DNA of 64,000 bases from Azolla caroliniana (taxonomy: Eukaryota > Plantae > Polypodiophyta). This document shows positions 366-45,180 of the stretch, piece by piece. A model generated the notes under the pieces. The model saw only the letters and a list, made by a program, of their open reading frames with translations, was not told where the DNA came from and searched no databases. Position 1 is the stretch's first letter. The number at the start of each line of letters is the position of its first letter. The stretch spans positions 18,104,001 to 18,168,000 of the forward strand of contig JBHGNT010000012.1 of the NCBI GenBank assembly GCA_043228905.1. The letters are read 5' to 3'. The translations under genes and the position numbers were made by a program.

Positions 366-673
366 CGACACAAGATGGGGGATGAGTAAGTATATTAAAT
401 TAGCATTATCATCATCAAATACAAAAATACCCACAATGAGGTATATATACATCTCATGTGCAAGGGTGCACATGTGTGAGTGGAATATAGGTGCTAAGGT
501 GTAGGTCCTATATTAAATGTACTTAGAAGTGGAGGATCTAGAATATCCCACTTAAGTACAAGGTTCTATTGAAGGCGTTATAGTCAACACTTCTAACTAG
601 ATTCTATCTAGGTAACTACGAAGTTACATGGTTGACTAACTAACTAAACTAAGTTGAGCTTGATCTCTCAACA
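1..673 (-). mobile_element. Element A: 5' end of an LTR retrotransposon (LTR 215-673, tRNA-iMet PBS 204-214), inserted into chromovirus B; runs off the left edge
   Basis: TGTTAAG...CTCTCAACA termini. CTCTGATACCA (reverse complement of the PBS TGGTATCAGAG) abuts the LTR. Gypsy protease coding resumes at 674. (GA)n at about 320-362. Confidence 0.85.
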
Positions 674-3600
674 CATTTAATATAATTAGCATCCCAGAAC
701 ACCCCATTGGTTTAGGATTACCATGGTTCGAATTACATAACCCAAACATAGATTGGAGAACAAGAGAAATCCGGTATCGAAAAGCCCGAGGGTCTACTCA
801 TGAGATTGCAACCATTTTGCTACATCAGTTGTGGGAAGAAGGACGCAAGGAAGAAATGTTTCTCTTCGCAATATCAGTAAAGACCTCAGACACCATTAAA
901 GAGGAGTCCACTATTCAACTTCCAAAGAAGTATCATCATTATGCCGATGTGTTCGATAAAGTACAAGCCAATACGCTTCCTCACCATCGACCGTATGATT
1001 GCCCCATCGATTTACAACCGGGGAAAGAGCCACCATGGGGACTGATCTACAATTTGTCACCAACCGAGCTAGAAGTCCTACGAGCCTATATAGAGGAGAA
1101 TTTGGAAAATGGTTTCATTCGGCATTCGAAATCTCCAGCCGGCGCACCCATTTTCTTCGTCAAGAAAAAGGATGGATCACTTCGTCTCATTCTAGATTAC
1201 CGTGGCTTGAATAAGGTTACAATCAGAAATAGGTATGCACTTCCCCTTATCTCAAGTCTTTTAGAACGGATCAATGGTGCAAGGTTCTTCATGAAGATCG
1301 ACTTACGGGGGGGAGCCTATAACCTCGTACGGATCCGACCAGGAGATGAATGGAAGACCGCGTTTCGCACCAGATATGGGCACTTCGAGTATACAGTCAT
1401 GTCGTTTGGCCTCACTAATGGCAAATGATATGGAAAATGATATATTCTGAGATCTCTTGGATGTTTGTTTGATGATCTATTTGGATGATCTACTGGTTTA
1501 TTCGAAGACCCAAGAAGAGCATGATTCTCATGTATTGTTAGTACTAAAACGACTTCGAGAACATAGTCTTTATGCAAAGCTGGAAAAATGTAGTTTTGGG
1601 TGCAACCAGGTGGAATTTCTGGGCTATGTCATTTCCTCGGAAGGCATCTCCATGGACCCAGCTAAGGTCAAAACTATGGTAGAGTGGCAGACTCCGTATT
1701 TGATGCGAGATGTGCAATGCTTTTTAGGCTTTGCCAATTTTTACCGGAAGTTCATACAGGATTACTCAAAGCTCGTTTTGCCTCTCAAACAACTTACCAA
1801 GAAGGGACAATTGTTCGTTTGGTCTGAAGAAGTGGACATGGATTTCGAGAGTCTTAAGAAGGCATTTACATCGGCTCCAATTCTACCTCATGTCGATCCG
1901 GAAAAACCATTCATTCTCGAAGCAAACGCGTCGTATTTCGCATTGGGGAGCATTTTGTCACAACGGGGTAATGATGAGAAGCTACAGCCTGTGGCTTTTC
2001 ACTCACGCAAGTTTGACACTGCCAAAATCAACTACAAAATTCATGATAAGGAGCTATTGGCAATAGTGGATTCTTTTACGCAATGGAGGCATTTTCTAGA
2101 GGGATCCTCTCATCAAGTCACCGCATTCAGTGACCACAAAAACCTTGCATACTTTCAGTATGCTTGTGTGTTAAATCGATGTCAAGCTCGGTGGGTCCAC
2201 TTCCTCACGCGTTTCGACTTCAAAATTACATATCGTCTAGGGAAGCACCAAGGGAAGGCAGATGCATTATCACGACATTCGTACCTAGCACCGCGTCCCG
2301 ACGAGCCAACTTTTGATAACCAAAAGCAAGTAATCTTGGGACCGACACGACTGCAAGCAACACAAGTCTTTGGCATGCCCATGGATTCCCACGTTATCAA
2401 TACTATACGTAAGGACTTGAAGACCGATGCTTTCGCCCAAGCCATTCTAGCACAAATTGATCCCTCTCGAACATCTTGTTCACAGTCTCAACCATCAAGT
2501 ACGGACTATCAACAATTCAAATACCATGATGGATTACTATTCTTTAATGAACTCTTGTATGTTCCTAATGGTTCTTGCCGCCTTCGAGTAGTCCAAAACT
2601 ATCATGACACATATATAGTTGGGCATTTTGGTAGTACTAAAACATTAGATTTAGTACAATGATCATTTTGGTGGCCCCGTATGCGACAATTTGTCGAAGA
2701 TTTTGTTCGGACTTGTGATACATGTTGCAGAGTGAAAATGCCAAGGTATCATCCATATGGTTTATTAGAACCATTACCAATTCCAAGCAAGTCGTGGCAA
2801 TCCATTGCTCTAGACTTCATCACAGATCTTCCAGTCTCTAAGGGGTTCAATGCGATTCTAACAGTCGTAGATTGATATATGAAGATGGCTCATTTTTTGC
2901 CATGTACTAAGGAAATCTCTAGTGAAGAAACCGTTGAAATTTTCATGCGTGAAGTATGTCGGCATCATGGCCTTCCCGATAGTATCATCAACGACCATGA
3001 ACCCCAGTTCGTATCGAAATTCTGGAAGCACCTTTTTAAAATGCTCAAGGTCACTTGTAACCTCTCCTCCAGCTACCACCCACAAACCGATGGGCAAGCA
3101 GAACGAACAAATCAAACGCTGGAGTAGTATCTTCGGTGCTTTCTAAGCTATCATCAGGATGATTGGGCAGATATTCTCCACTTTGCCGAATTTGACTATA
3201 ATAACTCTGTCCACGCATCGACTAAAGTTACGCCATTTTATGCTTATACGGGTTGTTACCCCGGTGGTGTGTATTTGAAACCCCAGAGATGTCCACAAAT
3301 CCTTTCGTAGATGATCGTTTAGAGTGGTTACACAAGATACAAGCCGATTTATCTACTCATCTCCAACAAGCTCAACAAACACACAAGGTTTATGCGGATC
3401 GTCATCGACTTCCATCCTATTTTAACATTGGAGATCGGGTATGGCTACTACGATGACACATCAAGACTACTCGTGCATGTGAGAAGTTGGATTATCGACA
3501 ATTAGGTCCTTTCCGTATTATAGGAAAGATTAATGATGTTGCTTTTCATCTCGATCTACCTCCACAACTTCGGATACATACGGTGTTTCATAGTTCTCTC

Positions 3601-3890
3601 TTCGAACCCTATTAAGAGAGCACCTTTCCAGGACGTATTACATAGCCTCCACCCCTGATCGAGCTTGAAGATGGACATGAGTACGAGGTTGCCGACATCC
3701 TTGATTCCAAGATTGTTTGCAACAAGCTCTCCTATCTAGTCGATTGGCTAGGATATAGTCCTAGTGACTGTACTTGGGAACCGATAGAGAATGTGACCAA
3801 TGGTCGTGCTCTTCTTGAAGACTTCCATCGTCAATATCCAAACAAACCGGGTACTCAATCCAAAACGACTCGTGACACTCATCGTTTTAA
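674..3890 (+). pseudogene. pol: Degenerate chromoviral pol with C-terminal chromodomain (about 3660-3850)
   Basis: ORF fragments 817-1428, 1457-2662, 2681-2875, 2879-3127 and 3253-3456. The 3' end translates EYEVADILDSKIVCNKLSYLVDWLGYSPSDCTWEPIENV. Confidence 0.9.
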
Positions 3891-3904
3891 AAAGGGGATA
3901 GTGT

Positions 3905-3978
3905 CATGATATGGCAAGACTCAAACCCATGACCTTATGCTACAAGGGTCGAGCTCTTGACCATTAGACCATACATTA
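3905..3978 (-). promoter_or_regulatory. Degenerate tRNA-like (Pol III A/B box) cassette at the U3 tip of the B LTR
   Basis: The minus strand reads TGGTCTAATGG (A box) ... GGTTTGAGTC (B-box-like) at tRNA spacing. Confidence 0.55.
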
Positions 3979-6900
3979 TAATACATATATATTATTTTCA
4001 TTTATGTTTTATTATAGAAAATTGATGTATATTCTAGATTTCTCTAGAACATTCTAGAAGCTTTAGGAGTACTCCTGAGAACATTATAAAAGGAGGCACA
4101 AGGCATTATTACGAACCTAATCGGTTCAACGCTAGTCTTAAGCCTCCTAACTACTATTATATACTCTCTTCACATAATATATAATCATTTATCATCATTC
4201 TTTCTCACCCTTTCTCTCTCTCTCTCTCTCTCTCTCACTCACTCTTTCCTTCTCTCGAGAGTTCTACATCTCTCTTAGTATTAATCCTCATCTTTTAGTA
4301 CTAATTCCTTCTCTGTCTTAGTACTGATCCTGACAGCAAGAAGATGGTTCGGATCATATGTGGTGACAAGTGTCAACGACAATGCCACATACCACCTTGC
4401 GGAGCTAGACAGTGTCGTGTTGCACATGACACACGTGCCAAACGTCGTGATGTGCGCGTCACAAGCGCGGACAAGCACCGGGCCTCTATCCGCTAGTGGT
4501 TATGGAGGATTGATGATGGGATCGTTCAAGATAATGGAACCGCGGAAGGACTAGTGCAAGCGAGAAGTATTAAAGAAAAATTGATAGATAGATGCAGGTG
4601 GGAATTCCTATTCCCGGTGTCGTGTTACTACGCTTTCGCGGGTGAAAGAGACGGGACCACAGGGGCCCTGAACCAAGGAGCGTGAGAGAGGAGAGAGAGA
4701 GTGTTTTGCTGAACACAGTGAAAGAGAGAGAGAGAGAAAACAGAACAATTCGATTATAACACCAAAAACGATTACAACCGGCACACCGGCAACGGACCCA
4801 ACACGGGAGTGCAACCACACACACACAGGTGTCACACGCCAAGCACAGAAATGCGAGGGGAAATCCTCTGATGGAAGCGCACGGGCTGTCCACGAAGCAG
4901 AGGCGACGATCTCCAAAACCTGCAGAGAATGACAACCGAAGGAGGAGAGAGGGAGCTCGGTACTTGGTTTTGCAACACTTCGTCCTCGCTAACGCACGAC
5001 GCCCCTGTTCTTCCTTCTCTTCTTCCTTATATAGGTCGTTGGGGAGAGTCCGTTCTCCTTCAGTCACAGTCACATTACTTTATTCTCTGTCCCTTCGGAC
5101 AGAGATACACATCGATTCCCTAATAAATGTGTTGGACCTAGTATATTTACATCAGCCGCCCCACACATAATTATGTACAAGTTATCAATTCACACGCCCA
5201 CACATGGAAGGGCCGGTTCGTGCACGGTTTCTCTCGTTTCCTCCTAGGGATGGTTTTCTCCACGACATCCACCCCCACCAAACCGCGCGTCCACCGGTAC
5301 GCGCCAGATACAACACTTGCTGGAGAAAACCGGCCCGCTATCAGTCGTCGCTGCCTGAATCATCATTCGTTTTGAGCCGATCGTCGTCGTTAGTCGCACA
5401 TTCCGGGTCTGGCTCTTCCTCTTGCCACTTCTTGAAGACCTTGACCCTTTTTCCTGCTACCGGCACCGCCATCTGTGTCCCGTCGAGCTCCGCAAGATGG
5501 TACATGCCATTGTTGTTCGCACTCGTTACCACATAGGGCCCGAACCACCTCCTCGCAAAATTACTCACCGCCTTGTGCTGATTGTCGAGGCTGCTGTCGT
5601 ACACTAGCACCCAATCACCTTCCTTGATCTTCCTTGGCCTCAGTCGGTGAGTATGGTCGAACCGACCTTTGTTCTTTTCTCGTGCTATACGTAGCCTTTC
5701 CTTTGCCCACTCCACGTCTTCCGGTTTTCGCTCGAGTTGCCAGATCCTTGCTGCCAGCAACTCTTCCTGACTCATCTTGTCCTTCCAGTCCATCGCAGCC
5801 CACGAAGTGATCGTTTTCTCCGCCGGCATGATTTGCTTCTGCCCGTACATCAGCTTCGCTGGCATGAACCCCGTCACCGAACTATGCATAGTTCGATCTG
5901 CCCATAGCGCGTAAGGAAGGAGCCGTGGCCAATTCCCGACCTGTCCTTCGCATGCACGTACTAACACCTTCACAATGGGCTCGTGACCACGCTCTACCTT
6001 CCTGTTGGCCTCCGGATTGTATGCCGTAGTGAGGGAGAGTTTGACCCCCAGTCGGTCAAACAACTCTTCAGCCTCTTGCGCGTCTAGTTCTCCGCGGTTG
6101 GCCACGATCTTTCCTACACACCCGTACCGGCACACCACTTCTTCAATCAGAAATCAGCACACGGCCGCGGTCGTTTTGTTCTGAAAGCTCAGCCTTCCAC
6201 CTGGTTCGTCAGGTCCTCCCGAGCCAGCACCAAATATCGCATCTGTCCTACCCCCATCGGCATAGTCACTAAATCCATCATCCATTTGAAGTGGATGGTC
6301 GGTGGGTAGGTTGGATGAAGCTTGTTTCGATGCTGGATTGTAGAGTGCATCTGGCAATTCTTACAGGTTGTCACAAAATGATGCACGTCCCGATACAACC
6401 CCGGCCACCAATACTTTCCCTTGAGCTTCTTGAATGTGGCCCACGTCCCGTGGTGTCTGGCCTAGGGACTCTCGTGATATGCTGTAAGCAACGCTTTCTG
6501 CTTGTCTTCCCTCGCCACTACGCGGAGTGGGGTGTTGCTACGCTTCTTCGGATGCCTCCATATGCGGCCTCCTCGTAGGAAGAATTGGTACGCCTTCTTC
6601 CGCACCCGATTGGCCTCTTCTCTAGTCCACGCCGTGTCCGGCGTCATCGTCCGTAGGAACCTTCCTATTTGGAGCCACTCCCCGTCGTATTTGCTCTCGT
6701 CGAACTCGTTAAGCGCCGGAGTGCTCCCCGTCCCAGTTGCCACGTTAGCTGACCCGAAGAATTCCTCGCCGACTTCTTCGTTATCCGAAACCATGCCGTC
6801 CTCGTCGCTGAACCGCGCCCTTGAAAGCATATCGGCCATGGCATTATCCTTTCCGGAGATGTGTCGTATCTCCGGGTTCAGGGACTTGATGTACGCGATC

Positions 6901-7765
6901 CACCTGAACATCGCCGGGTCTGGACTCGCGCACCCAGAAACCATACCTAGAATCGGTAGGCAGTCCGTCTCGATGATCACTTCCGTCCCAATCAGATAGT
7001 CCTTGTCGGCCTTGACTGCCGAAACGATACCCCATAGCTTGCGCTTAATTTGGGCATATCCTTGTTGCCGCTCGCTCAATACCTTTGCTCCGAACCGGAT
7101 CAGGAACCGTACACCGTCCTCGTCTTCCTGATTGATCATCCACCCAATTCCGATCGGGCTCGTGTCCACCATCACGTAAATGGGGACTTCCTTGCCGTAA
7201 ACCGCTTTCCGGAGAGCTGGTGCCGTGGCGAGCTCCTCCTTTAGTCTCTGGACCGACTCCATGTGCTCCGTCCTCCATTCGAACCGGCACCCTTTCTTTC
7301 ATATCCCGTAAAGTGGTTCCGCGACATGCGCGTAGTGGGGAATCTAGATGTGATAGAACGCACATGCCCCCAGGATCCTTCGGACCTCCGTGACCGACCT
7401 GCAATCATCCTTCATCGCGGAGATGGCTTCTACCTTCGCCGAGGACGGCTTCCGGCCGTAAGGCCCACACAGGTGTCCGACTACCAGGATCTCCGGCTGT
7501 CCGAAGGCTGATTTTTCTTCGGAGAAGGTGAGCTGCGCGCTCTCGAGTCTTTGTAGCACCTTCTCGCAGTTGTGGATGTGATCCGTCACGAACCTCCGGC
7601 AACCGTCGGGGCCGACCGACTCGTCCTAGTCCTCCACCGGACATCCTTTGATCGGGATGTCGTCCAAAAACGGCATGGTGATGTCTGGGATGCAGTCCCT
7701 CAACACCTTGTTCATCGCATTCACCATGTGCGCCACCAAGTTCGTTCCCCCTTGCGGTAGGATAC

Positions 7766-8434
7766 TGTTATAAACAGTGCTCGGCCACAACCGAGGAATA
7801 GGATCAACTCACAGAAATTGGGAAATACAAAGTGCACGAGAACAGTAGAGAGAAAAGGTACACTGGAATTTTACGTGGAAAACCCTAAATGGGAAAAACC
7901 ACGGGAGTCCTCAAACTCCAACTATCACTATACACTGAGATGTACAATGGTGAAGCTACAAGGCAACAACCTTGAGCTCACTGTCTTCGCCACAGGCGGC
8001 GGTAATACACAGAGGCGTCGACCTCTTCCTTTCTCTCTCTCTCTCTCTCGGCTGCTCTCACTTCGCTCTCTCGGCTGAAAACATAAAATGAGCAACAACA
8101 TTTAAACTGTTTGCCCTAAGTCATATTTATACACATATGACTTTCGGGCTATTTACAAATATAGCCTCAAGGGCTCTTGGCAAAACATATTCACAAATAT
8201 GTCCCCGCATCCGGATCTCTCTCCGGGTACATTCGTCATCCGGCTCCGTTACCGGGGTCTTCAGCATCCGGCTCCGTAGCCAGGGTCTTCATCATCCGGC
8301 TCCGTAACCGGAACCGGGCTTGCCGTCATCCGGATCTCTCTCCGGGTACATTCGTCATCCGGCTCCGTAACCGCAACCGGGCTTGCCGTCATTCATCTCC
8401 GGACATCCCATCCGGAGGGACCGAAATCCCAACA
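7766..8434. mobile_element. Solo LTR (probably Ty1/copia) with 5-bp TSD GATAC, inserted in the RT of E
   Basis: TGTTAT...CCCAACA flanked by GATAC at 7761-7765 and 8435-8439. Its ends resemble the LTR of copia N at 63289-63376. Confidence 0.88.
8208..8420. repeat. CATCCGG-core minisatellite inside the solo LTR
   Basis: Repeated units catccggctccgt.. and catccggatctctctccgggtacattcgt. Confidence 0.85.
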
Positions 8435-11400
8435 GATACACATCCGAACTAGGTCGAGAAGAGTCCGCATCGTTGTGACATCCCTGCTCTCTACGGCTAG
8501 TTGGAACTGATCGTACCTTGAGTACAGATCCCCGACCGAGTAGATCGACCTCCCTCCGAAGGCCTCCACAAACTCATCAATGGTCGGTCTGATACCTGCG
8601 TTTTGAATGGTCACCTTGTTGACCGGCTGCAGGTCCTGTATGAAGCGCAGTGTGCCGTTCTTCTTTGGCACGGTAAACCACCGATTCGAATATGGGGCAC
8701 TCGACGCTTCGAGGATGCCCATCTCCACCTTCTGTTTCAACAACTCCATCACCTCCGGAATGTGAGCTCTAGGCACCGGATTCGGTTTAAGATTCCACGG
8801 TACAACGGTACCATGAAGATCACCATCGGTTCTACGATCGTTGGGTCTATGCACCCGATCTCCTCCGGCGAGAATGCGAAGGCTTTCTTGTGCCTTCCGA
8901 GCACTCTCCGAAACCGGCAGTAGAAACCCACCCCCACCAACCTTGAGCTCCCGTAGCGTTATGTCGGTGAACTGGTATCCTATGCTGGCTGGATTCCGTA
9001 AACTTGGGTCCAACGCGACCCCCTTTATACGCTTCTCGTTGCCCTCCAGCAAGGGTGCTGCGAAAGTCTCACCTTCCGGTCCACAGTCTTGTACTTCGTA
9101 CTTACGCAAGTCGTCCGATCCGACCTGATCCTTTCCCCAAAGTCCACGATGACTTCGTACATTTTCACTGAGCTGACCGGAATCATCTAGTCTTCGCTAA
9201 GGCCCTCGTCGACTACGCCACACAACTCTCCCAAGGTGTCGTCAAACAAGACTGCCTCCATGGCGCCGCTAATTGCTTCATCGGGGTGGAGAGCCCCACA
9301 TGACCTAAGCCGCTCCTCCACCTTCGTCTTCTCCCAGCTACTGATGCCAGTTACTGTACAACCTCCATTGTCAGAGAGTCAAAATTTCCTACCTATGGTA
9401 CAGGTGTGGGGTTCCTCCGGCGCGTCTGGACTATCGCAGCCCCACGCCTTCATAGCCCTCTTTAAAAATCCCCTCGGCTATCGCCGTCGCGAGTCTCGCA
9501 GTTACACTCATGATTTGGTCTTACGGTCAGAAATTGGACGGAGTGTCGTCTGTCTTGACTCTTCACGCGCGCGTATGCCGAGCCGTAGTCGAGCACCTTT
9601 GTTTCCATGCATGTTGCTGTGATGTATGGCTCGGCGAGTATCACTGGGTGCGAAGACATCTCCTGCACAAAGAAGTGTTGATCTATCTTGACGTCGCCGA
9701 TCTTTATGCGCACGTTCGGGCATGCCCCGTGCAACTCCTCCGTAGCGCGGGTCGTCGTGCGTATTTTCCAGCCATGTTTGGTGTTGATTGGCCATTTCCC
9801 CTTTTTGTAAAAGTCCATGGACATGAGATTGATCTCGGACCCATGGTCTATTAGCGCCACTACTGGTTCTTGCACATCTCCAATCCGGACAGGGGTCTCG
9901 GTAGTGGCTCTGGCCCAGTGTAGCTTTGAAAAATGGCTTTCCGCCAACTCGTCTTCCAGGGCCGCATCCTCTAGGTGCGTAGTCCGCACCTCTACGGGCT
10001 TCTCCGGTTCTGGTTCCATGGAGAGCTGTTTGCGCTTCACCAAGTCCACAATGGAGTCGTAGAACTCCTTCTTTGCGATCCTAGGCACCTCCCTCAATGA
10101 TAGCTCCACCTTGATATCAAGGATCCACTCTTCGAGGACCTTCTACAGGTCCATCGTTCTCTCTATCTCGGTGCTCAGCCGGTACCCGGTAGGCTTGGCC
10201 TTGTCCTGTATGCCGGAATTGCCGGCGTCACCCTTCCTCGGGCTGAACCGGGTGTCGTACTATTGCGGGGGATCGGGCCCTCCAGCCTTTCCCGCGCGCT
10301 TGTCTTCTACCAGAACCTCGTAGTTCTGGCATGCATCTTCTACGAAGCCAGACTTTTCCTCGACCGGGTCGTCCCACCTGGTGACCTCTCGGATCTGCTG
10401 CTCCGCGCGGTTCGCTTCTTCCTTCTTTAACCGAACTCCGGAGAGGCCTTCTAGCACCAGTGGCCAGAACCCGGAGTGGCTTGCCTTTTGTCCTTCGTTG
10501 CCCCCGACCCGGATTCCTGCCGAAGTGTCGCGCGACGGCCTCTTCCATGACCCTCTTCATTCCACCACGCCCGGTATTCACTTCCAGGGCTCTCTGAGTC
10601 TCGCTGGAGTGCACTCGGCCACCCCAGAGGTACACCGTGTTAATTCTGAGCGCATCTGCGAAATCTGCGCAGTCTCTGCGGGCATGGCCGAATGCGTCGC
10701 ACCATAGGCATCGCTGCTTGCCGGTGGCCTTCGGTCGCGAGACTGGTCGCCGCTGTCCCGTCGTGCATGCGCGATCTGGAGGTTGCGCACCATTTGTGTC
10801 AATTCTTCCAGCGTTGCTCCTCCGGACGGACCTTTGATCACGCCGCTCGAGGCCGACCCCGTCCCAAGCCAATTTTTGGTCTCTTTCTTTCGCGCCAGCG
10901 AAGGCTCCATGAACAGTCTTGCCGGGACAGGTCCCATTGTCGACGACCCTTCATCACTCCATTCCCGCTATTTGTCGAAACGGCTACAGACGCCTTTAAC
11001 CACAGCCTAGTCAGTCGTGAGCCCTCATTCGTCTCAAACATGAGACCTACCTTTTCTCTGTCCAACGCGTTGTCGTGAAGATCCGTCACTACGCGCGGAT
11101 CGTGAGGCGGAACCGTCGGGGTTCTGGACCGGATGGATTCAAAGTCGATACAAGCTTTGGCGAGAAAGTACTTAAGATAGATTAGGAAAGAGAGAAGTTG
11201 AGATTAAATGATTGAGAGAGATTGATTGAACTTTTAACTTTAGATTTAAGAAACAAGTTACACCATCAATTTGATAACGAATTTCTTCTTCTTAATTTCA
11301 TAATAAAAAAAAACCGTGTTTTTTCTCCTCCCCCTTCCCTCTTTTATAGATGCTCTCATGCATATGATGCATGTGAGGGTACAAGACATGCATAAATTGC

Positions 11401-11521
11401 ATGTTTGCCATTTGGCGCTTAAGTATTACATGTGGTGCATGATAACCATGTCACTCATTTTAGCTCTCATGTATAAGAATTTACATGTAAAAGTACAATG
11501 ATAGAAATATAATTTCAACTA

Positions 11522-11592
11522 AATAGCATGGCTTAATGGTAAGCCAATTGACTCCTAACTTGGAGGTGCAAGGTTTGAATCTTTACTTGCCC
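11522..11592 (+). promoter_or_regulatory. tRNA-like A/B-box cassette inside the solo LTR
   Basis: TGGCTTAATGG with D-stem GCTT/AAGC, hairpin CTCC/GGAG, and T-arm AAGG-TTTGAAT-CTTT. Confidence 0.6.
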
Positions 11593-11639
11593 TCCTTGTA
11601 TATGTAAATATGTATATATATTTATATATTTATTTATCT

Positions 11640-11780
11640 AGTCGCCGGACGCCGGTTCGACGGATACCGTCGTCGGATGTCGTCGGTTACCGGTGCCTCG
11701 CCGGATGCCGTCGCCGGATGCCGTCGGTTACCGGTGCCGGATGCCGTCGGTTACCGGTGCCGGATGCCTCCGACGGCATC
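11640..11780. repeat. GC-rich minisatellite (ccggatgccgtcggttaccggtg units) in the solo LTR
   Basis: Directly visible tandem units in an AT-rich LTR. Confidence 0.85.
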
Positions 11781-13671
11781 ACCCTTTACGAGTAGCTAGC
11801 CCACCTCCACTCTTAGTTCAAGTTGCCTTGAACTCTCTATGCTCCACACATAGACACAAAGATAACATCTTTTGCTCCACCTTATATATGATGAGAGCTG
11901 TATTTGTCGTGCCTATGTGGGATATCTCACAATTTTCTCTTTTCCTTTTACAAACTTTATACCCTCATATCTTGACATTTAGTTGTCCGTTTCTCGTGTA
12001 ATAAAGTGCATTCGAAACCTCCATCATTTTGTACTTAGATATTAAATCTATTTAAAATGTTATCTTCACAATTATTGTACTATGTGATTCATACTCGATT
12101 TTGTACGTTTTATGGGATTTTCACACTATTGCCGAAAATCTTCACGACAGCGTCGACCGCTTTGACGAACAGCAGTACCCGGCTCGTATCAAGCACAGTC
12201 CGGTTCAGCACCGACAACCGCGCGAACCGCGTTTCGAATTCCTAGAGGAGCGCCAATGCGCTCCTCCCCTTTCTAGGGCTTTCAACCCATGCCATGAAGT
12301 CCCGCTTCGACAATCGAAGGAAGTCGTCGAACCCATACTTTTCGAGGAGCCGCTCCCCGAAAAATTCCCACGTTTGGCATCCCGCCAGGACCTCAAGCAC
12401 CTCTGCATGGATGCTCAGCGTCACCACTTGAGGGAATCCGGATAGCTGCCTGTCTTCAGGGATGTCTCTCATGATCATCTCGGCCCAGTAGGCCTCCAAA
12501 TAGCTAATAGCGTTCTTACCACCAAATCGGCCTATGGTGCCGACGATCGATTCTATGGCTCTGTCGAGGGTACTTGCTCCCTCACAAGCGCTCACTAGCC
12601 GATCAACGGCTATTGCCATAGCTTCAACAAGCTCAGATCCCCTCATATTCAACTTAGTTGCCGCCTCCTTCACGTCGGGTTCACCAAATATGTCGTGTTA
12701 CTACGCTTTCGCGGGTGAAAGAGAAGGGACCGCGAGGGCCCTAAACCAAGGAGCGTGAGAGAGGAGAGAGAGAGGGTTTTGCTGAACACAGTGAAAGAGA
12801 GAGAGAGAGAAAACAGAACAATTCGATTATAACACCAAAAATGATTACAACCGGCACACCGACAACGGACCCAACACGGGAATCCACCCACACACACACA
12901 TGCGTCACACGCCAAGCACAGAAACGCGAAGGGAGAGCCTCTGATGGAAGCACACGGGCTGTCCACGAAGCAGAGGCGACAATCTCCAAAACTTGCAGAG
13001 AATGACAACCGAAGGAGGAGAGAGGGAGCTCGGTACTCGGTTTGGCAGCACTTCGTCCTCGCTAACGCACGACGCTCCTGTTCTTCCTTCTCTTCTTCCT
13101 TATATAGGTCGTTGGGGAGAGTCCGTTCTCCTTCAGTCACAGTCACATTACTTTATTCTCTGTCCCTTCGGGCAGAGATATACATCGAATCCCTAATAAA
13201 TGTGTCGCACATAGTATATTTACATCAGCCGCCCGACACATAGTTGTGTACAAGTTATCAATTCACACACCCACACATGGAAGGGCCGGTTCATGCATGG
13301 TTTCTCTCGTTACCCCCTAGGGACGGTTTTCTCCACGACATCTATATTCCCGGTTTGAACCTTTGACTTCAAAATTGAGATAGAAGACACCTTGCCAACG
13401 ACATAACTAGAACTTATTAATTATTATTGATTGCATACATTGTCCCCCTTTTGTTTCCCTTTCTCTCCTTCTTATATAGATGCCCCCATGCATATGTGCA
13501 TGTGAGGGTGTAGTACATGCATACAATACATGAGATGCATGCGATGCATGATCGCCATTTGACGATCATGCATCACATGTGATGCATGATGACCATGTAC
13601 CTTATCTAAGCTCTCATGTACAAATAGTTTCGTGTGAAAAAGTACAATGAACAATAATAACTTTCAAATAA

Positions 13672-13744
13672 AACAACCTAGTCTAATGGTATGTCTATTG
13701 CCTCCTATCTTGGAGGTGTAAGGTTCAAAACCTTTACTTGCACC
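13672..13744 (+). promoter_or_regulatory. tRNA-like A/B-box cassette in the 3' LTR of D (second copy at 19538-19610)
   Basis: TAGTCTAATGG ... CCTCC/GGAGG hairpin ... GTAAGG-TTCAAAA-CCTTTAC. Confidence 0.6.
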
Positions 13745-13766
13745 TCATTGTATGCTTTAGGCTTAT

Positions 13767-13810
<44 letters not shown>

Positions 13811-14700
13811 GAACACCTAAACGCACATCACAAGTGCACATTAACCATCACCCCTTCCATACATGTGCATATTGCACCTTCTCGATTTTACTCGCTCCAT
13901 GTGATTTTCACACTGTTGCCAAAAATCTTCACGACATCCACCCCCACCAAACCGCACGTCCTCCGGTAGTGCCAAGAAGAGAATGTGAGATTTCGGCTAC
14001 GGTGTGAGATTCTTCCACGTCCTCGTTGACCTCGCTCATGTTTGGGGGTTTTACCTTACTATCTTCATTGTTGAGATTATCGTGTTCGGTACCCTCACCT
14101 TGTCTTTTCTTGAAGATCTTTAGTCTTTTTCCCGCAATCGGTATGGCCAGGCTTGATCCGTCTAGCTCCACATATGATATGAACCACCTTCTTGCAAACT
14201 TTCTTGTCGTCTTATGTTGGTTGTCAAAGCTATTGTTGCAGACCAATACCCAACCTTCTCCTTCGATCTTCTTGGGGTGTTGACGATGTGTCTTCTCAAA
14301 TTGAATCTAAAAACTAGGTGCTTCTTCTAATTAGCCAATCCTTTTCTTTGAGATGGGAGATAGAAATGTTGGCAATACAACCTCCTTTGTTTAGTTGAAC
14401 ATCCCACCATCTTGATGCATCTTTTCCTTCCTTCTTGTGTGTTGTCTTTATAATCACTTCTTTCCTTTCTTCTTTACAAGTAATAACCATCCATTTTACC
14501 ACAACCTCATCTTCTTCGATAACAACCTCAATGTTAGTTATACTTACATCATCATTATAATAATCCTTTGAGTTGACGACATCTTTGATCACCGAATCTT
14601 TTTTTACAAGATAAGCATCATATTCAATATCATCTACCCTAAAATTATCCTTCCCAAACACACTCACAACACCAACATTATCGTTATACATATCCCAAAC

Positions 14701-17415
14701 CATAGTATGAACCATGCGTACCATTCGTGCATTCGTGTTCGAGAATGATTCAATCATTCGAGAAGGGTAAACACCCTCGAAGATTGATAAATACCATACT
14801 TTTGGTTAAATTATTTACTATAAGATAAATATTTTTTCAAGGTAAATATTTTTTTTAAAATTGCAAAAATAAACACATTACCTTCTTAATAACAATATGC
14901 ATTTTTTCGTAAATTCTAATAACAACTATCCAAAATGCCTACTCTTCAAAAAAATTCTCAATGAGGTGTTAATCAAAATGAACATTCCTAATCTTCATTC
15001 AAGGTGATATCATCATCATCAAAATCATCATCCTCATCTTGTGCATTCTCATCAATATAAGCCATCACATTGGTGAAGCTCTCATTTTCATCAACTTCTT
15101 GTGCTTCTTGTTCACTTTGCAACACTAATAACCGTTCTTCATCATTTTCTTTCTCAATCATTTCAATAGTAATCTCAATAGGATTGAAACCTCTTTCTTT
15201 AATCTTCTTAAGAATACGAAGATTTGTGTGCAAAAAAACCAATTTTTGCACATGTTTTGAACTCAATCTATTTCTCCTTTTAGTATGTATTAATGAAAAT
15301 GTACTCCAATTCCTTTCACAAGACGATGCACTTGTACCTTGAGATAATATTCTAATTGCAAGTTTCATCAAATTGGGAGTGCTTGCCCCAAAAGTTTCCC
15401 ACCATTTGATTGGTGTGCTTAATCGATTAGCATCCTTTGCAAATGGAACTTGAAACAAATCTGATGCTTGTTTTCTATATGCATAAAACTCATCTATCAA
15501 AGCATTTTGTAAAACTATATTACCACTAGCATAAAGCATGACTATTTTCATCCACCCCATTTGTAAATCATGATCCATTTCTTGACCATTTGCTGTCCAT
15601 AATGGATGTAAGACATATCCAGCTGCATGCAATGGTGATTCCAACATTGTTAGTCTATGTATGCAACACTCTTTTATTTCATCAAGCTTCATATGATCAA
15701 TTTCTGTCATATTGTTTATATCAATCAACATTTGTTGTTTAAATTGATAAATCAATCCCATTGTAGCACCTTCCCTATCAGCCAAACGAAGAAGCTTTAA
15801 AACTGGTTTGCATACCTTCACAATCATCTTTACATCTGCCCAAAAGTTAGCATCCAATACAATTGAAACCATCTCTTCCGCTTTCTTTGTTTTGGCACCA
15901 TTCCAATTGCACCATTGTTCACTAACCACTATTCTTCTCAAACCACCATATACTTTATCATCCAACAAATTTGATAACACAATAAAACTATAAGAAAACC
16001 TAGTCGTAGAAGGCTTAAGCAAGTCTTTTCCACTAAACTTGTGAAACATGGCCAAAGCATATTGTTTTCTAGTTATGAAACCACTAATCTTCATAGCTGA
16101 TCGCAAAATGGCATCAATCCAAGCACATTTGGCTATATCCTCCAACAACAAATCAACGCAATAACAAGTGCATCTAGTGTAAATAATAGATGGCCCCTCC
16201 TTTTCTATCATATGTTCCGCAACCACACAATTTGCAGTATTATCCATACAAACTTGAACTACATTTGATGGTCCAACTTCAAGAATAGCATCCTTCAAAA
16301 TTTTAAATATGTATTCGCCCGTCTTGACATGACCACTTGCATCTATCGATTTCAAAAACATTGTGCCATGTAGTGAAGAAGCTAAAACATTAATAATTGG
16401 TCTATTTCTAGTGTCTGACCAACTATCACTAACAATAGTGCATCCATATGTCTTCCAACATTATAAGATCATGCTCAACATTTACAACTTCTCCATTAAG
16501 ATATTTCTTATGCAATTGATAAGCAGAAGGTGCTTTAAACGAAGGACCCACTTTCGAAACAACCATAAGCATATCATGGAAAAATGAGCTTTCCACTTTC
16601 CGATGTGCAATATTTTCCGCAGAAAAAAATCTTGCAACAGCCTCTTCAGCCTGTTTCCTCAATGCCAATTCAAAAGACATTGGGAGTGAACCACTCGCCT
16701 CTATTTTTTGCTTTTTCGTAGCCATTTTATTCATTAAAATGGAACTAGAAATAGAGGCATCTGTAGACATATCTGCATCAACATTAACACTAGTATTACC
16801 ATTTACATTTGTTTGTACATCTGAATTCAAGTGATCATTTCCATGACACATTGCATTTCTTAACGGACTCCTCACAATATCACTTGCTTTTGTGCATTTT
16901 TCTACACCTTGTCATCTTATTCCCAATATATGGGCCCTAATTCGATGAGGGCCACCAACAAAGACATGATTACAATATTTGCATTTCATCAAATGCGTTC
17001 CTTTTGCATTCTTTACTTGAATTACAACATGTTCCCACCCCAGGCCTTTTTGTATAACCATTAGTTCCTAAATTACTGTAAAACGTAAATATCAAAATTT
17101 CATCACTTCATCTCAGAAATTTCAGAAATTTCATTTTAGAAATTTAAACCCTAATACCTATTATTAAACCTAATTATACTTGAATGTCGTGAGTCGTTGG
17201 TATGCACTGTGCAAATCATTCGAGGCTAGGTGGGAGAGGAGAGGAGAGTGTAACGTTATGTGTAGAGGAGAAGGGGGAAAAAACAAAAAAAAATGAAAAA
17301 ATGAAAAAAAAAATGAAAAAAAACAACACACAAAATTTTTAATATCATTCGTGTTTGTTTTCCAATGTAGAGAAACGAATGATATGGCTGAAGTACACGA
17401 ATTTTACGTACTATG
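14701..17415 (-). mobile_element. hAT-superfamily DNA transposon, 2715 bp, 8-bp TSD TCCCAAAC, inserted in element D
   Basis: Imperfect TIRs CATAGTATGAA / (reverse complement) CATAGTACGTAA. TCCCAAAC at 14693-14700 and 17416-17423. Subterminal CATTCG repeats. Confidence 0.93.
14988..17061 (-). pseudogene. hAT transposase (BED zinc finger, DUF659-type core, hAT dimerisation domain), with one premature stop and one frameshift
   Basis: ATG at 17061, WEHV...CKYC...RAH BED finger, IVSDSWSD, TRF, WWETFG and SASSCERNWS motifs. Stop near 16913, frameshift near 16450, intact 457-aa C-terminal ORF. Confidence 0.9.
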
Positions 17416-17922
17416 TCCCAAACCATCATAGCATTTTCTAGATTATCCTCAATATTATCAACCTTAATCCCATCCTTCCCATACATGCTCACAACATCAA
17501 CATCATCATTATACACATCCCAGATAACATTTCCTAGATTTTCCTTGCTTATACTCATGTGATCATTATGTAACCCCACATCCACATGGACATATTTTTG
17601 CAGAACATCCCCATCATCACAAGTACCTATTCTATTTTCATAATGGATATCCTCATGAATGTCACCATTTGATCTAGTGAAACTCTTATAAAATCTATCA
17701 CGAAGAAAACCAAGGCAACCTAAAACACATGATTTCTCTTCGTCACTCTCACCCTCATCATTACCCCTATCATAACCATATCCACAGAAAGTGCACAACT
17801 TTCTATCATCATAACCCTCATTATTCTCATGGCACTCACTCTCACCATCAATAATGCATTCTCCCTTACTATCATCAAGCCCTAAATAGTGTGTTTCATT
17901 TCTATCATCATCGTCATCATAT

Positions 17923-19035
17923 TTAAATGTAAAGTTTTTCGTCTTTTTCTAACTCCTCTTGTTTGTGGCTCTTATTAAACCTATCATACTTGTCATCAAA
18001 ATTTAAATCATGAGAGTTTCGATCCCAACCTTTCTCACCATCATGGCTTCCGTCGAGTGCTTTTTCATTAGCACAACCATGAAGAGCTCGACATTGATTT
18101 CTCCTCTTGTGTTTATAGTAATCTTTGTCACGATCATAACTTTGTAGAGCTCGAGCACTTTTTGTGAGTTTGTAATGATCTTTGTCTTTGTCATAATCGT
18201 GTAGATCTTGATCTTTCTCTTCAAGCCCACGTTCTTTGTCTGATGTCTCTTCACGATTGCATCCCCAAGTATCTTGGTCTTTCCCCTTGAGCCCACGTTC
18301 TTCATCACATGTTTCTTCACGACTACATCCTTGAGTATCTTGGTCATTCCCCTCGAATGTATGTTCTTCATTCCATGTCTCTTCATGATCACATCCTTCT
18401 TCAGTGCATATCTCTCTTCTCTTGCGTTTGCAATGATCTTCATGACGACAATCATAATCTCTCCCTTCAAGATTGCGTTCTTTGTCACATGTTTCTCCTT
18501 TGTCGAGTTTGCAATGATCCTCGTAACGACCATAGGCATGTCGATGTCGATCTCTCTCTTCGAAACCTTCTTCTTCATTGAATGCCTCTTCACGATCACT
18601 GTGAACATATCCATGTCTCTTGTCAAGCCCATGTTCTTCATCGCGTCTCTCTTCACAACCGCATCCTTGAATATCTTGATCTTTTCTTACAAGCCCACAT
18701 TCTTTGTTGAATGTCTCTTCATGATAGTAATCACGAATATCTCGATCATCTTCATCTTCATCATTGTTGAGAAGCCCATGAAAAGGTTGACGTCCGATTC
18801 TGGACGTCATAACTGCTTCATACCAATCCGGAACTTCTTGATATAATCTTTCGACTTCCCTTGCCAACTTGAGATAATCCATCGCTCTATCCTTATCATC
18901 CTGCAACATCATTTCAATGGACTTCCTTATAAATGGAAGCATTATCAGTCTCGGCCCACCTTCTCTTCTTATAGACTCTTCTAAGTCATAAGCATCCAAG
19001 ACCGCATCCATCATTCGTGATGCCTCCATTACCAC
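17923..19035 (-). CDS. Orphan 370-aa ORF of non-autonomous element D with about 21-aa highly charged repeats
   Basis: Begins just after the PBS. Repeats of the type EETCDEERGLKGKDQDTxGCxR. No retroelement motif recognised. Related decayed coding continues at 17416-17798 and 14314-14700. Confidence 0.55.
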   Translation of the reverse strand: MVMEASRMMDAVLDAYDLEESIRREGGPRLIMLPFIRKSIEMMLQDDKDRAMDYLKLAREVERLYQEVPDWYEAVMTSRIGRQPFHGLLNNDEDEDDRDIRDYYHEETFNKECGLVRKDQDIQGCGCEERRDEEHGLDKRHGYVHSDREEAFNEEEGFEERDRHRHAYGRYEDHCKLDKGETCDKERNLEGRDYDCRHEDHCKRKRREICTEEGCDHEETWNEEHTFEGNDQDTQGCSREETCDEERGLKGKDQDTWGCNREETSDKERGLEEKDQDLHDYDKDKDHYKLTKSARALQSYDRDKDYYKHKRRNQCRALHGCANEKALDGSHDGEKGWDRNSHDLNFDDKYDRFNKSHKQEELEKDEKLYI

Positions 19036-19632
19036 CTTGTGTTTTTGACGTCGGGTTCACCAAATAGATGTCGCGTGGTGCATGACACACGTGCCAAACG
19101 TCGAGATGTACGCGTCACAAGCGCGGACAAGCACCGGGCCTCTATCCGCTAGTGGTTATGGAGGATTGATGATGGGATCATTCAAGATAATGGAACTGCA
19201 GAAGGACTAGTAAAATCGAGAAGTATTAAAGATAAATTGATAGATAGATACAGGTGGGAATTCCTATTCCCGGTTTGAACCTTTGAAGTTTCAAAATTGA
19301 GATAGAAGACACCTTGCCAACGACATAACTAGAACTTATTAATTATTATTGATTGCATATATTGTCCCCCTTTTCTTTCCCCTTCTCTCCTTCTTATATA
19401 GATGCCCCCATGCATATGTGCATGTGAGGGTGTAGTACATGCATACAATGCATGATGACCATGTACCTTATCTAAGCTCTCTTGTACAAATAGTTTCGTG
19501 TGAAAAAGTACAATGAACAATAATAACTTTTAAATAAAACAACCTAGTCTAATGGTATGTCTATTGCCTCCTATCTTGGAGGTTTAAGGTTCAAAACCTT
19601 TACTTGCACCTCATTGTATGCGTTAGGCTTAT

Positions 19633-19672
<40 letters not shown>

Positions 19673-20269
19673 GAACACACATCACACGTGCACATTAACC
19701 ATCACCCCTTCCATACATGTGCATATTGCACCTTCTCAATTTTCCTCGTTCCATGTTATTTTCACACCGTTGCTGAAAATCTTCACGACAACGGATCAAG
19801 GTTGGCCATACCCATTGCGGGAAAAAGAGTAAAGATTTTCAAGAAAAGACAAGACGAGGATCCTGACCTTGATCACCTCGACGATAAAGATAGTAGGACC
19901 GAACCTACAGACTTGAATTATGTGAATGAGGACATGGAAGAATCTGATTAATCACCATAGCTGAAATCTCACAATCTCTCTTCTTGGCACGTACTGAAGG
20001 ACGTGCGGTTTGGTGGGGGTAGATATCGTGAAGATTTTCGGCAACGGTGTGAAAATTGCATGGAATGTACAAAATCGAGTGTGGTTCTTCACACACAATA
20101 AGAAACAATAATAGTGAAGATACTATTTTAGATTAGTTTAATATCTTGGTACGAAAAGATGGATGTCTTCAAGAGCTTCTGAATATACTTTACTACATTT
20201 AAAACGGACAACTAAATGTCAAGTTATGTGAATGTGAAGTTTGAGAAGATTTTAACACAGTGAGTTGCG

Positions 20270-40678: not shown

Positions 40679-41710
40679 GTCTTCAGTGTTGATGTCGGCT
40701 ATAGAGGTTCTCAACCCTCGCGCGCTGATACCATGAAAAACGAAGATGCAGAAGCATTAGACAACTGGCTCGGCTGGATAGCAACAAAGAGAGAGAGAGA
40801 GAGAGAGATTAATATACAGAAGGTACGCAGGAGAGACAGAGAAAGAGCAGAACAACTTGAATCTATTATCAACAACTCTGTAAAATTCTCTGTCTATACA
40901 ACTTGCTCAACATCACTATTTATACAAGTCCTAAGAGAACTGATAGAATTATAGTGTACTTCAATGCTCACACGAGCCTCTGACACTAACTACGAGACAT
41001 TAACTACCTAGTAGTCTAGGCTGCTACTAGGCTTCTGGTTACTGCTTGATCCGGCTAACCGGCTCACTTTCTCACCGGCTCGCCGATCCAGCTCAGGCTT
41101 ATTCAACCAATCCGGATCCGGTTGAGCTTGAACCCTGTGGCTCTAAGTTAGGAGACAGTAAACTTACCAGTAAACCAGGTCATTTCTTTAGAATTGTTTT
41201 TTCTATCATTATACTTTTACATGTAAATTCTCATATTAGAGCTTGATTGAGTGACATGGTTATCATGCATCACATGTAATGCATGAGCGCCAAATGGCAA
41301 ACATGCATTCCATGCATTGTATGTATGTCTTGTACCCTCACATGCATCATATGCATGGGGGCGTCTATAAAAGAGTGGATGAAAAAGATCAAAGGGGGAA
41401 GAGCTATGTATTAATCAAGAATTTAATAAGAAGAAAATTCGTTATCCAATTGATGATATATCTTGTTCCTCAAATCTAAAGTCAAGGGTTCAATCTTAAT
41501 TTCTCTCTCCATTTCAATCTCTCTCAATTTGAAGTCAAGCGTTCTATCTTTTCTCAATCTCTCTCTCTCTCTTTCAATCTATCTTAAATGCTTTCTCGCT
41601 AAAGCTAGTACAAACTTCGAATCCTTCCGGTCTAGAACCCCGGCAGTTCCACCTCACGATCCGCACATAGTGATGGATTTTTCATGACATAATTAAGTGG
41701 TGAACCCGAC

Positions 41711-45000: not shown

Positions 45001-45180
45001 TCTCTCTCTCCCTTCGGTCGTTTCCGGTATTCTTCTGGGATTCCCCGAAAACGGTAAAGCACGACTTCCTATGCTCCGTCACTCCCTAGTCCAAGACCCC
45101 CGTGGTCCCGCCTTTCTCCACGCACGCGCGTAATAACGCGACATCTTTGGTGAACCTGATGTGAAAGGCAGCAAGGGAGG

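What the first reader, a model, noticed from the sequence alone, without database searches (positions are those of the whole stretch)
3905..19610. tRNA-like Pol III cassettes built into U3 of two unrelated LTR lineages, divergent from the TATA box
Seen: A-box and B-box-like motifs at tRNA spacing, with residual D- and T-arm stems. They occur in the chromovirus LTR (3905-3978, minus strand), the C-type solo LTR (11522-11592) and both D LTRs (13672-13744, 19538-19610). In each case the cassette is antisense to the element and about 100-250 bp upstream of the TATA box (4085, 11345, 13475, 19395). Presence in both D LTRs and in a diverged sister LTR shows it is replicated as part of the LTR. Known: Cassandra TRIMs carry 5S-derived Pol III promoters in their LTRs, and tDNA/TFIIIC sites act as heterochromatin barriers in yeasts and mammals. 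Inference: a portable tDNA-like insulator or Pol III promoter that protects the LTR promoter inside heterochromatin, acquired convergently.
Basis: partly seen in the sequence, partly recalled or inferred. Interest (0 to 1): 0.78.

Follow-up and report, generated by a model that had tools for sequence, protein, structure and literature searches.

The report
Backwards tRNA promoters in retrotransposon LTRs
Two distantly related families of jumping genes, likely from a moss, carry the promoter boxes of a worn-out tRNA gene built backwards into their end repeats, where they likely act as a docking site for tRNA-gene transcription factors beside the element's own promoter, although that role is untested and a passenger relic remains possible.

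Summary
tRNA-type A and B boxes at tRNA spacing (43-44 nt) lie antisense in U3, 114-201 bp from the TATA box, in a Tcn1-like chromovirus LTR and in one sub-family of Phygy-like LTRs (pol identity between lineages about 24%). A profile from unrelated tRNAs ranks three copies top of the window. Public-run contigs link the cassette to the rest of the LTR in both families, so it is not a sporadic insertion. It is not a tRNA: ARAGORN, Rfam and a cloverleaf model all miss it; only D- and T-arm remnants remain, plus non-tRNA hairpins. Closest known: Helenus TRIMs (Kojima 2024), which are short, non-coding and carry the boxes in sense. Here the boxes are antisense and sit in long elements, one encoding RT, integrase and a chromodomain. 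Selection on the boxes themselves was not shown, sister LTRs lack the cassette, and no function was tested; a TFIIIC docking site beside the Pol II promoter is my best reading (0.42), a passenger relic the main rival (0.30). The scan noted similar cassettes in two probably fungal genomes. New variant of a known kind.

The parts
3905..3978 (-). Chromovirus cassette: A box 3971-3960, B box 3927-3918 (this copy has T at tRNA position 56), ending 16 nt from the LTR end; folds as one long non-tRNA hairpin
   Evidence: (z -2.4); position 3923 reads the intact-box letter in 86-89% of laid depth in three DNA runs
3902..4335 (+). 3' LTR of the Tcn1-like chromovirus (TG...CA), polypurine tract just before it, TATA at 4085
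   Evidence: loose ends before 3902 in 36, 61 and 50 contigs with agreement 0.36-0.38, i.e. many different flanks
664..3900 (+). Chromovirus pol: RT, RNase H, integrase zinc finger, chromodomain; broken by stops and frameshifts; 5' part lost behind other insertions
   Evidence: Chromo PF00385, E 3e-15
11522..11596 (+). C cassette: A box 11529-11540, B box 11572-11581 (T at position 56), then a 10-bp hairpin enclosing the B box and an AT microsatellite
   Evidence: 17.6 bits; z -3.4
11071..12149 (-). C solo LTR, Phygy-like family, 4-bp target duplication GCGT, TATA at 11348
13672..13746 (+). D 3'-LTR cassette: A box 13679-13690, B box 13722-13731 (C56 kept, followed by A, so no CpG), followed by (AT)n(GT)n
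13341..13937 (-). D 3' LTR, U3 and promoter part (its other part is 4413-4617, split off by a nested element); TATA at 13478
19538..19612 (+). D 5'-LTR cassette: A box 19545-19556, B box 19588-19597; one substitution against the 3' copy, outside the boxes
19069..19790 (-). D 5' LTR, followed by the primer-binding site at 19067-19050; TATA at 19400
41125..41184 (-). Fifth cassette (element E): A box 41177-41166, B box 41134-41125, cut off just after the B box
41125..41689 (+). Remaining part of E's 5' LTR (74% identical to C), TATA at 41366, primer-binding site and gag start behind it
13466..13614 (-). Conserved promoter block (TATA plus CATG-rich repeats) between the cassette's AT-rich spacer and the R region; shared by C, D, E and L106
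   Evidence: 87% pairwise identity over the 41 columns compared

Best explanation
Each of two Gypsy lineages carries in U3 an antisense tRNA-derived A/B-box unit that has lost its cloverleaf and is copied with the LTR; it was likely captured separately in each lineage as a tRNA gene or SINE head, and it likely works as a DNA docking site for TFIIIC, which would place TBP-containing TFIIIB on the AT-rich spacer facing the element's own TATA box and so help keep that Pol II promoter open. Shown: the boxes, their spacing, orientation, linkage to the LTR in many copies, loss of the cloverleaf, the AT-rich upstream spacer and the lack of a near terminator. Inferred: separate capture, factor binding, and any benefit to the promoter. 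Because the unit points away from the element it cannot make the genomic RNA, unlike Cassandra or Helenus.
For: Boxes at tRNA spacing, above chance. Family-wide: contigs of three or four DNA runs bridge cassette and promoter in both families (table 8, e.g. 13579-13722, 13573-13731, 13594-13767, and joints that skip only the spacer, e.g. 13597-13671, 13619-13674; table 8, e.g. 3867-4015, 3924-4090). Most chromovirus copies keep the B-box CpG (86-89% of depth, 114-120 contigs per run), and the one common A-box variant (3970) stays inside the purine allowed at tRNA position 9 (box consensus as in PMC10886601: TRGCY, YGG, GGTTC). Both D copies and E keep C56 in a CpG-free form. In the D family only 1 of the 40 listed variant rows falls in the 62-nt cassette, against 9 positions in the 64-nt spacer, 12 in the 149-nt promoter block and 17 in 121 nt of R/U5 (Fisher p 0.017, 0.11, 0.007; 75 further rows were not shown and the tool's ranking rule is not stated). 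The 45 nt upstream of the A box are 76-91% AT in all 6 copies, where TFIIIB is placed on tRNA genes (PMC13437025, passages). No run of 4 or more T lies within 70 nt of the B box except in the window's chromovirus copy, where most family copies have a shorter run: not a tidy small-RNA gene. Cloverleaf lost while boxes persist, as in Helenus.
Against: No binding, transcription or chromatin data. Among 4 independent Phygy-like copies the boxes are no more conserved than the sequence between them (A 0.75, between 0.73, B 0.70, spacer 0.65, promoter block 0.87). C, L106 and the window's chromovirus copy have lost C56. In the chromovirus family the cassette varies as much as the rest of U3 (5 of 54 against 8 of 79 listed positions, p 1.0; 22 rows not shown), and its CpG is kept no better than nearby CHG sites (63-94%). 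Six LTRs of three sister Phygy-like elements in the window have no box pair, nor do 20 distant chromoviruses, so the unit is dispensable. tDNA barriers are not described in plants (PMC13578239, passage); methylated tDNA clusters are silent in Arabidopsis (PMC7544208, abstract). Contig depth profiles cannot rank parts of a stretch by the tool's own warning, so I do not rest on them.
Confidence: 0.42

Rival explanations
1. Passenger relic: a tRNA-derived SINE or tRNA pseudogene inserted once into an ancestral LTR of each family and has since been copied along without function; only antisense insertions survive because a sense head and tail would disturb the Pol II transcript.
For: Boxes not better kept than the inter-box sequence in 4 copies; C56 lost in 3 of 6 copies examined; chromovirus cassette varies like the rest of U3; sister LTRs do without it; the Phygy-like cassette is followed by an AT/GT microsatellite like a SINE tail; Kojima proposes SINE2 insertion into an LTR as the origin of Helenus (PMC10886601, discussion). 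An unchecked note on a fungal genome reached this verdict for a similar antisense relic (e1-9852194).
Against: Exact tRNA spacing is kept in all 6 copies although the spacer beside it has changed by indels; in the D family the cassette has the fewest listed variants of four regions; two lineages show the same geometry, though that alone has a chance of 1 in 4 for orientation.
Confidence: 0.3
2. The working part is a hairpin, not the boxes: each family has built a stable non-tRNA stem on the relic, which would act in the 3' end of the genomic RNA (or in the cDNA) during packaging, strand transfer or polypurine-tract processing.
For: Chromovirus D-half/T-half duplex -20.3 kcal/mol, stronger than 0 of 202 tRNAs match; C, D 3' and L106 extension stems -16 to -18, also 0 of 202 (regions chosen after seeing the folds). 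The sense strand folds too (z -2.6, -3.0, -2.3). The polymorphic sites 3940 and 3943 lie in the loosely paired top of the hairpin. The chromovirus hairpin starts 3 nt inside the LTR, next to the polypurine tract.
Against: The two families have different hairpins; the D 5' copy has a weakened one (-9.6, 15 of 202); E gives z 0.35 (it is truncated); no two-sided compensatory change was found in the canonical arms and the extension stem shifts register between C and D.
Confidence: 0.13
3. An antisense Pol III transcript is the product: it would run outward over upstream U3 (or, from the 3' LTR, into the polypurine tract and integrase end) and tune silencing or copy number, as foamy viruses make Pol III hairpin RNAs from their LTRs.
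For: Both boxes plus AT-rich upstream DNA; hairpins on the cassette strand; in D, T4 runs lie 195-226 nt downstream, still inside the LTR; precedent in simian foamy virus, where A- or B-box mutation lowered expression (PMC3993851, passages).
Against: No terminator in a shared position: none within about 230 nt in C, 114 nt in L106, shortened in most chromovirus copies. Foamy-virus units have a terminator at the stem base. No expression data either way.
Confidence: 0.11
4. Landing pad: the boxes recruit TFIIIB and so attract Pol III-targeting retrotransposons to a fixed distance upstream (idea from the unchecked note e1-10420520).
For: The window is a stack of nested insertions, and elements sit inside the C, D and E LTRs.
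Against: None of the 5 window copies has an insertion within 100 nt upstream of the A box; the insertion in D's 3' LTR is about 340 nt away, and E is cut on the downstream side.
Confidence: 0.04

Closest known systems
Helenus TRIMs (TRIMp3; Kojima 2024, PMC10886601; parts 1-4 of 6, searched passages and supplement passages read)
   Same: tRNA-derived sequence inside LTRs with boxes A and B kept and little tRNA function left; copied with the LTR; several independent origins; proposed SINE2 origin; one plant case (Selaginella).
   Different: Helenus elements are 311-1263 bp and non-coding. In the supplement entries I saw with both parts (Helenus-1_SMo, LTR-11_DR, Helenus-1_CCa, Helenus-1_PolSpa) the boxes are on the same strand as the primer-binding site, so Pol III could make the genomic RNA. 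Here the boxes are antisense, a TATA promoter is kept, and the hosts are long elements, one with RT, integrase and chromodomain. Kojima notes that 'not a few' Repbase LTRs resemble tRNA but analysed only TRIMs under 1 kb, so unstudied cases in long elements probably exist.
Cassandra TRIMs (as described in PMC10886601 and PMC10946416, passages)
   Same: Small-RNA-gene promoter built into plant LTRs.
   Different: 5S type (A, IE, C boxes), non-autonomous, and shown to drive the element's own transcript; here tRNA type, antisense, untested.
Foamy virus LTR Pol III miRNA genes (PMC3993851, passages)
   Same: Autonomous reverse-transcribing elements with A/B-box Pol III units and hairpins in the LTR, beside a Pol II promoter.
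   Different: Those units are proven, end at a terminator and yield miRNAs; no tRNA ancestry is claimed in the passages read; here no fixed terminator and no RNA evidence.
tDNA / TFIIIC barriers of yeasts (as reviewed in PMC13578239, passage)
   Same: B-box-dependent factor site next to silenced chromatin is what the best explanation works like.
   Different: [quoted passage not shown]
Tcn1 chromoviruses and Phygy elements of mosses (Neumann 2019, PMC6317226; passages and supplement rows)
   Same: Host lineages: aromatic-cage chromodomain and fungal named relatives (Tcn1-like); Trp-type primer site and 4-bp NCGN target duplications (Phygy-like).
   Different: No tRNA-like LTR unit appears in the passages I saw; 'tRNA' does not occur in the P. 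patens TE-expression paper PMC7466625. No tree was built, so both names are 'like'.

Membership tests
Helenus / TRIMp3 | tRNA-derived sequence with boxes A and B inside the LTR | tested here: met
   weak for the chromovirus window copy alone (E 2.6), better at family level
Helenus / TRIMp3 | Short (about 0.3-1.3 kb) non-coding TRIM | tested here: not met
   Chromovirus carries RT, RNase H, integrase, chromodomain; D is about 6.6 kb without its nested insert and keeps gag-like and integrase remnants
Helenus / TRIMp3 | Boxes in sense, able to drive the element's own RNA | tested here: not met
   All 5 window copies antisense; the 4 Helenus entries seen with both parts are sense
Helenus / TRIMp3 | Pol III transcription from the LTR | not testable with these tools
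   Only contigs, no stranded reads
tRNA gene | Cloverleaf recognised by a covariance model or ARAGORN | tested here: not met
   ARAGORN 0 genes; no Rfam tRNA match at E up to 10 on the window or on two short stretches; none of the 16 window hits of model R1 is a cassette; L106 6.3 bits, E 4
tRNA gene | Paired anticodon arm | tested here: not met
   40% of cells paired in 5 Phygy-like copies
Sporadic SINE2 insertion | Present in few copies with its own target duplication and tail | tested here: not met
   Same place in C, D (both LTRs), E, L106 and in bridging contigs of several runs; a microsatellite follows the Phygy-like cassette, none follows the chromovirus one; I made no separate search for an eroded target duplication
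tDNA / TFIIIC barrier | Intact B box (C56) | tested here: inconclusive
   Kept in D (2 copies), E and 86-89% of chromovirus depth; lost in C, L106 and the window's chromovirus copy
tDNA / TFIIIC barrier | TFIIIC occupancy and blocked spread of silencing | not testable with these tools
   No ChIP or methylation data
Tcn1 chromovirus clade | Chromodomain with aromatic cage | tested here: met
   PF00385 E 3e-15; Y, W, Y cage positions read from the translation (positions recalled)
Tcn1 chromovirus clade | Groups with fungal Tf1/Sushi elements; self-priming | tested here: inconclusive
   The named hits among the 120 listed are fungal (Rhizopus, Sordaria, Endocarpon); no tree; the 5' end is not in the window
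Phygy (non-chromovirus Gypsy of moss) | 4-bp NCGN target duplication | tested here: met
   GCGT (C), CCGT (53424 element), ACGT (44401 element), ACAG/ACGG (D); not matching for the 4618 element (definition)
Phygy (non-chromovirus Gypsy of moss) | tRNA-Trp primer-binding site | tested here: inconclusive
   One shared primer site follows the 5' LTRs; its match to plant tRNA-Trp is recalled, from no call
Phygy (non-chromovirus Gypsy of moss) | Phylogenetic placement of RT, RNase H, integrase | not tested
   No reference sequences held

The most novel reading that the evidence does not exclude
Long, protein-coding LTR retrotransposons have repeatedly captured tRNA promoters and mounted them back to back with their Pol II promoter as a portable TFIIIC/TFIIIB barrier, so that a heterochromatin-seeking chromovirus carries its own shield against silencing into every insertion. 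This would be the first tDNA-type barrier in plants and the first one built into a mobile element's LTR, present in very many copies per genome.
Probability: 0.22. Interest if true: 0.82.

Novelty: new variant of a known kind. Interest (0 to 1): 0.52.

Why it matters
Kojima argued that autonomous LTR elements must rely on Pol II and left long elements with tRNA-like LTRs unstudied; this is such a case, twice in one genome, in an orientation that cannot make the genomic RNA. If the boxes bind TFIIIC, a very abundant family scatters Pol III factor sites through plant heterochromatin and offers a direct test of whether tDNA barriers exist in plants, which a 2026 review says has not been described. 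Sister LTRs with and without the cassette give a natural control. If it is a passenger, it still matters for tRNA and SINE annotation of these genomes.

Tried and rejected
No whole genome is held, so no genome-wide count, host tRNA set or isotype call was possible; best matches to 202 phage tRNAs were 68-76% and mixed in isotype, and the anticodon-position triplet differs between copies. Functional tRNA: rejected. Cassette as the element's own primer: rejected, longest complement to the D primer site 4-7 nt. General chromovirus feature: 0 of 20 distant relatives (34-47% identity) had a box pair or profile hit in an LTR position; the one profile hit (L396, E 0.03) lies in the integrase frame; their LTR limits were only partly known. 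No relative of the Phygy-like pol in viral contigs. Expression: no RNA holder listed; run X17, only guessed to be RNA, laid 6 contigs: no evidence either way. Contig depth shows a 20-30-fold peak over the D cassette against its spacer and a 10-18-fold trough just past the chromovirus cassette, but the tool warns that contig depth cannot rank parts, so this is a hint only. The tRNA set was picked with a cassette-like A box and was therefore not used for the profile or the model. The profile run on single LTRs missed the chromovirus and E cassettes, so absence from sister LTRs rests mainly on the box scan. A recalled fish-retrovirus precedent could not be checked and was dropped. Literature searches for tRNA boxes in long or autonomous LTR elements listed no paper on it; I saw only titles and abstract starts for most hits, subscription journals are not covered, and Repbase entries may note it. 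Supplements of the bioRxiv preprint were not opened.

Full report
Setting. The window is a stack of nested LTR retrotransposons of both superfamilies. No whole genome is held. Public runs that hold the D LTR come from several plant-associated labels. The two lineages in question fit moss clades, so the host is likely a moss (inference). The element at 664-4335 (+) has RT, RNase H, an integrase zinc finger and a chromodomain, and the named hits among its 120 listed relatives are fungal, as Neumann 2019 describes for Tcn1 (PMC6317226, passages). The second lineage has one shared primer-binding site and 4-bp NCGN target duplications, which fits Phygy in that paper's supplement (tRNA-Trp 81%, 4 bp NCGN); the Trp reading of the site is recalled. 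The two pol regions are about 24% identical.

Anatomy. Self-comparison shows that D spans 4413-19790 on the minus strand. Its 5' LTR is 19069-19790; its 3' LTR is split into 13341-13937 and 4413-4617 by a nested element (LTRs 4618-5267 and 12691-13340), which in turn holds the C solo LTR (11071-12149). D has no RT; it keeps a gag-like frame, an integrase C-terminal remnant and a hAT transposase piece. E (41125-42308, +) is a deleted sister of C. So the cassette-bearing Phygy-like copies in the window are all defective, and whether that sub-family has autonomous members is open; the chromovirus family is of the autonomous type.

The observation. A scan for box pairs found all four cassettes and a fifth at 41177-41125, each antisense to its LTR, at 43-44 nt spacing. 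Real tRNAs span 42-46 (202 genes). Six pairs at that spacing occur in the window against 1.65 in shuffles (0 of 40 reached 6), and single-LTR shuffles gave a pair in 0-10 of 500. A profile of 108 phage tRNAs picked only by T-loop and CCA end ranks the C and both D copies first to third of 18 hits; shuffled windows gave 0.025 hits per window at the lowest of those scores. The chromovirus copy scores at chance level and E is not listed. L106, 1 of 120 loci from a metagenome scan whose pattern left the cassette out, is an 83% sister of C with the cassette in place (E 3e-6). TATA-like sites lie 114-201 bp from the A box, pointing the other way; that they are the Pol II promoters is inferred from their place before a CT-rich R region.

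Not a tRNA. ARAGORN finds nothing, Rfam gives no tRNA match on the window or on two short stretches, and none of the 16 hits of a cloverleaf model built from 60 tRNAs is a cassette. In five Phygy-like copies the D-arm is 85% paired, the T-arm 76% and the anticodon arm 40%, without two-sided changes. Instead each family has its own non-tRNA stem. The chromovirus unit folds as one long hairpin (z -2.4); C, D and L106 have a 10-bp stem around the B box (z -2.1 to -3.4). These stems are stronger than the matching regions of all 202 tRNAs, except in the D 5' copy (regions chosen after the fact).

Part of the LTR, family-wide. In four DNA runs, 591-1046 contigs were laid on the D LTR; listed pieces bridge promoter block and cassette, and several joints skip only the spacer between them; 14-19 contigs per run in three runs enter the cassette from a different upstream sequence that ends in an A-box variant. 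On the chromovirus LTR 2549-4388 contigs were laid per DNA run; pieces bridge cassette and promoter, and 36-61 contigs leave the LTR end into unlike flanks 16 nt from the B box, i.e. many separate insertions. At 3923, 86-89% of depth has the intact B-box letter, so the window copy is a decayed one. The two D LTRs differ at 16 of 524 aligned sites, one of them in the cassette and none in the boxes. A sporadic insertion is excluded.

Is it under selection? Mixed. For: in the D family 1 of 40 listed variant rows lies in the cassette, fewer per base than in spacer, promoter block or R/U5 (p 0.017, 0.11, 0.007; 75 rows not shown). Spacing is exact in 6 of 6 copies while the spacer has indels. The common chromovirus A-box variant (3970; 7-54% of depth) stays within the consensus purine. 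Against: among four independent copies the boxes (0.75, 0.70) are no better kept than the inter-box sequence (0.73) and worse than the promoter block (0.87). C56 is lost in 3 of 6 copies. The chromovirus cassette varies like the rest of U3 (5 of 54 against 8 of 79), and its CpG is kept no better than nearby CHG sites. Six LTRs of three sister elements lack any box pair, as do 20 distant chromoviruses.

One capture or two? The two cassettes share the boxes and little else: 54-61% identity, against a mean of 68% (5th percentile 59%) between tRNAs with the same A box, and 77-87% within the Phygy-like family. Their flanks and hairpins differ. Separate capture is the simpler reading, but an old transfer cannot be excluded without the host's tRNA and SINE sets.

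How it most likely works. From established knowledge, A and B boxes bind TFIIIC, which places TFIIIB upstream on AT-rich DNA (PMC13437025, passages). Here upstream means toward the TATA box, and the 45 nt there are 76-91% AT. The unit cannot make the genomic RNA because it points outward, and it has no terminator in a shared position. That leaves a DNA-level role as the most economical function: a factor site back to back with the Pol II promoter that helps keep it open, useful to a chromodomain element thought to seek heterochromatin (RLG1 case, PMC7466625, passages). I give this 0.42. A passenger relic gets 0.30, a hairpin role 0.13, an antisense Pol III RNA 0.11, a landing pad 0.04.

Comparison with what is known. 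Helenus (PMC10886601; parts 1-4 of 6, passages and supplement passages; found through a passage of 10.64898/2026.03.01.708851) is the nearest kind: tRNA boxes in LTRs, cloverleaf mostly lost, several origins. This is not a Helenus: two defining features fail (short and non-coding; sense orientation). Cassandra is 5S-derived (PMC10946416, passages). Foamy viruses show that an autonomous retroelement can run Pol III units in its LTR (PMC3993851, passages). Searches listed no paper on antisense tRNA boxes in long LTR elements, but Kojima states that many Repbase LTRs resemble tRNA and that he kept only TRIMs.

Verdict. Real, family-wide, in two lineages, and outside the definition of Helenus; function unproven. 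New variant of a known kind, interest 0.52.

Noticed in passing
window 14988-16911 (-): A hAT transposase piece (DUF659 plus dimerisation domain) sits inside element D where pol would be; capture or nested insertion not resolved.
   Followed up: no
window 4607-4618 and 13340-13353: The element nested in D's 3' LTR has unlike 4-bp flanks (CCGG and TCTA) but a 9-bp stretch of the D LTR occurs on both sides with extra bases between: aberrant integration or recombination.
   Followed up: partly
window 12674-12690, 19050-19068, 41690-41715, 45144-45165: In the Phygy-like elements 4-8 nt separate the LTR end from the TGG of the primer site, longer than I recall as usual.
   Followed up: no
window 13380-13354 (-): A second, sense-strand B-box-like motif in D's R/U5 region scores 2.6 bits with the tRNA profile, at chance level; no A box found at tRNA spacing.
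   Followed up: partly
window 11640-11790: A GC- and CpG-rich tandem repeat of short units lies in the U3 of the C solo LTR just beyond the cassette's microsatellite; absent from D.
   Followed up: no
window 41125-42308 (+): Element E joins the start of gag directly to the R/U5 part of a second LTR: an internal deletion derivative.
   Followed up: partly
window 17923-19056 (-): D's first frame carries charged repeats of about 22 residues (66-nt units, family D19) and matches no other frame in the window or Pfam.
   Followed up: no
window 4336-4412 and 19791-20385 (+): An older Phygy-like element, split by D and by the chromovirus, keeps an integrase C-terminus and the start of a C-type 3' LTR, cut by a copia before the cassette region.
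   Followed up: partly
window 28852-33818 (-): A young copia element: LTRs 99.3% identical, one 1137-residue pol frame.
   Followed up: no
window 13938-13970, 5268-5300, 20000-20025, 48430-48459, 54084-54115: The Phygy-like elements here have a G-rich tract before the 3' LTR, not the tRNA 3' end that other notes report for another lineage of this genome.
   Followed up: yes
window 1-64000: CpG observed/expected is 0.98 for the window but 0.44 in the chromovirus LTR and 0.70 in the D 5' LTR.
   Followed up: no
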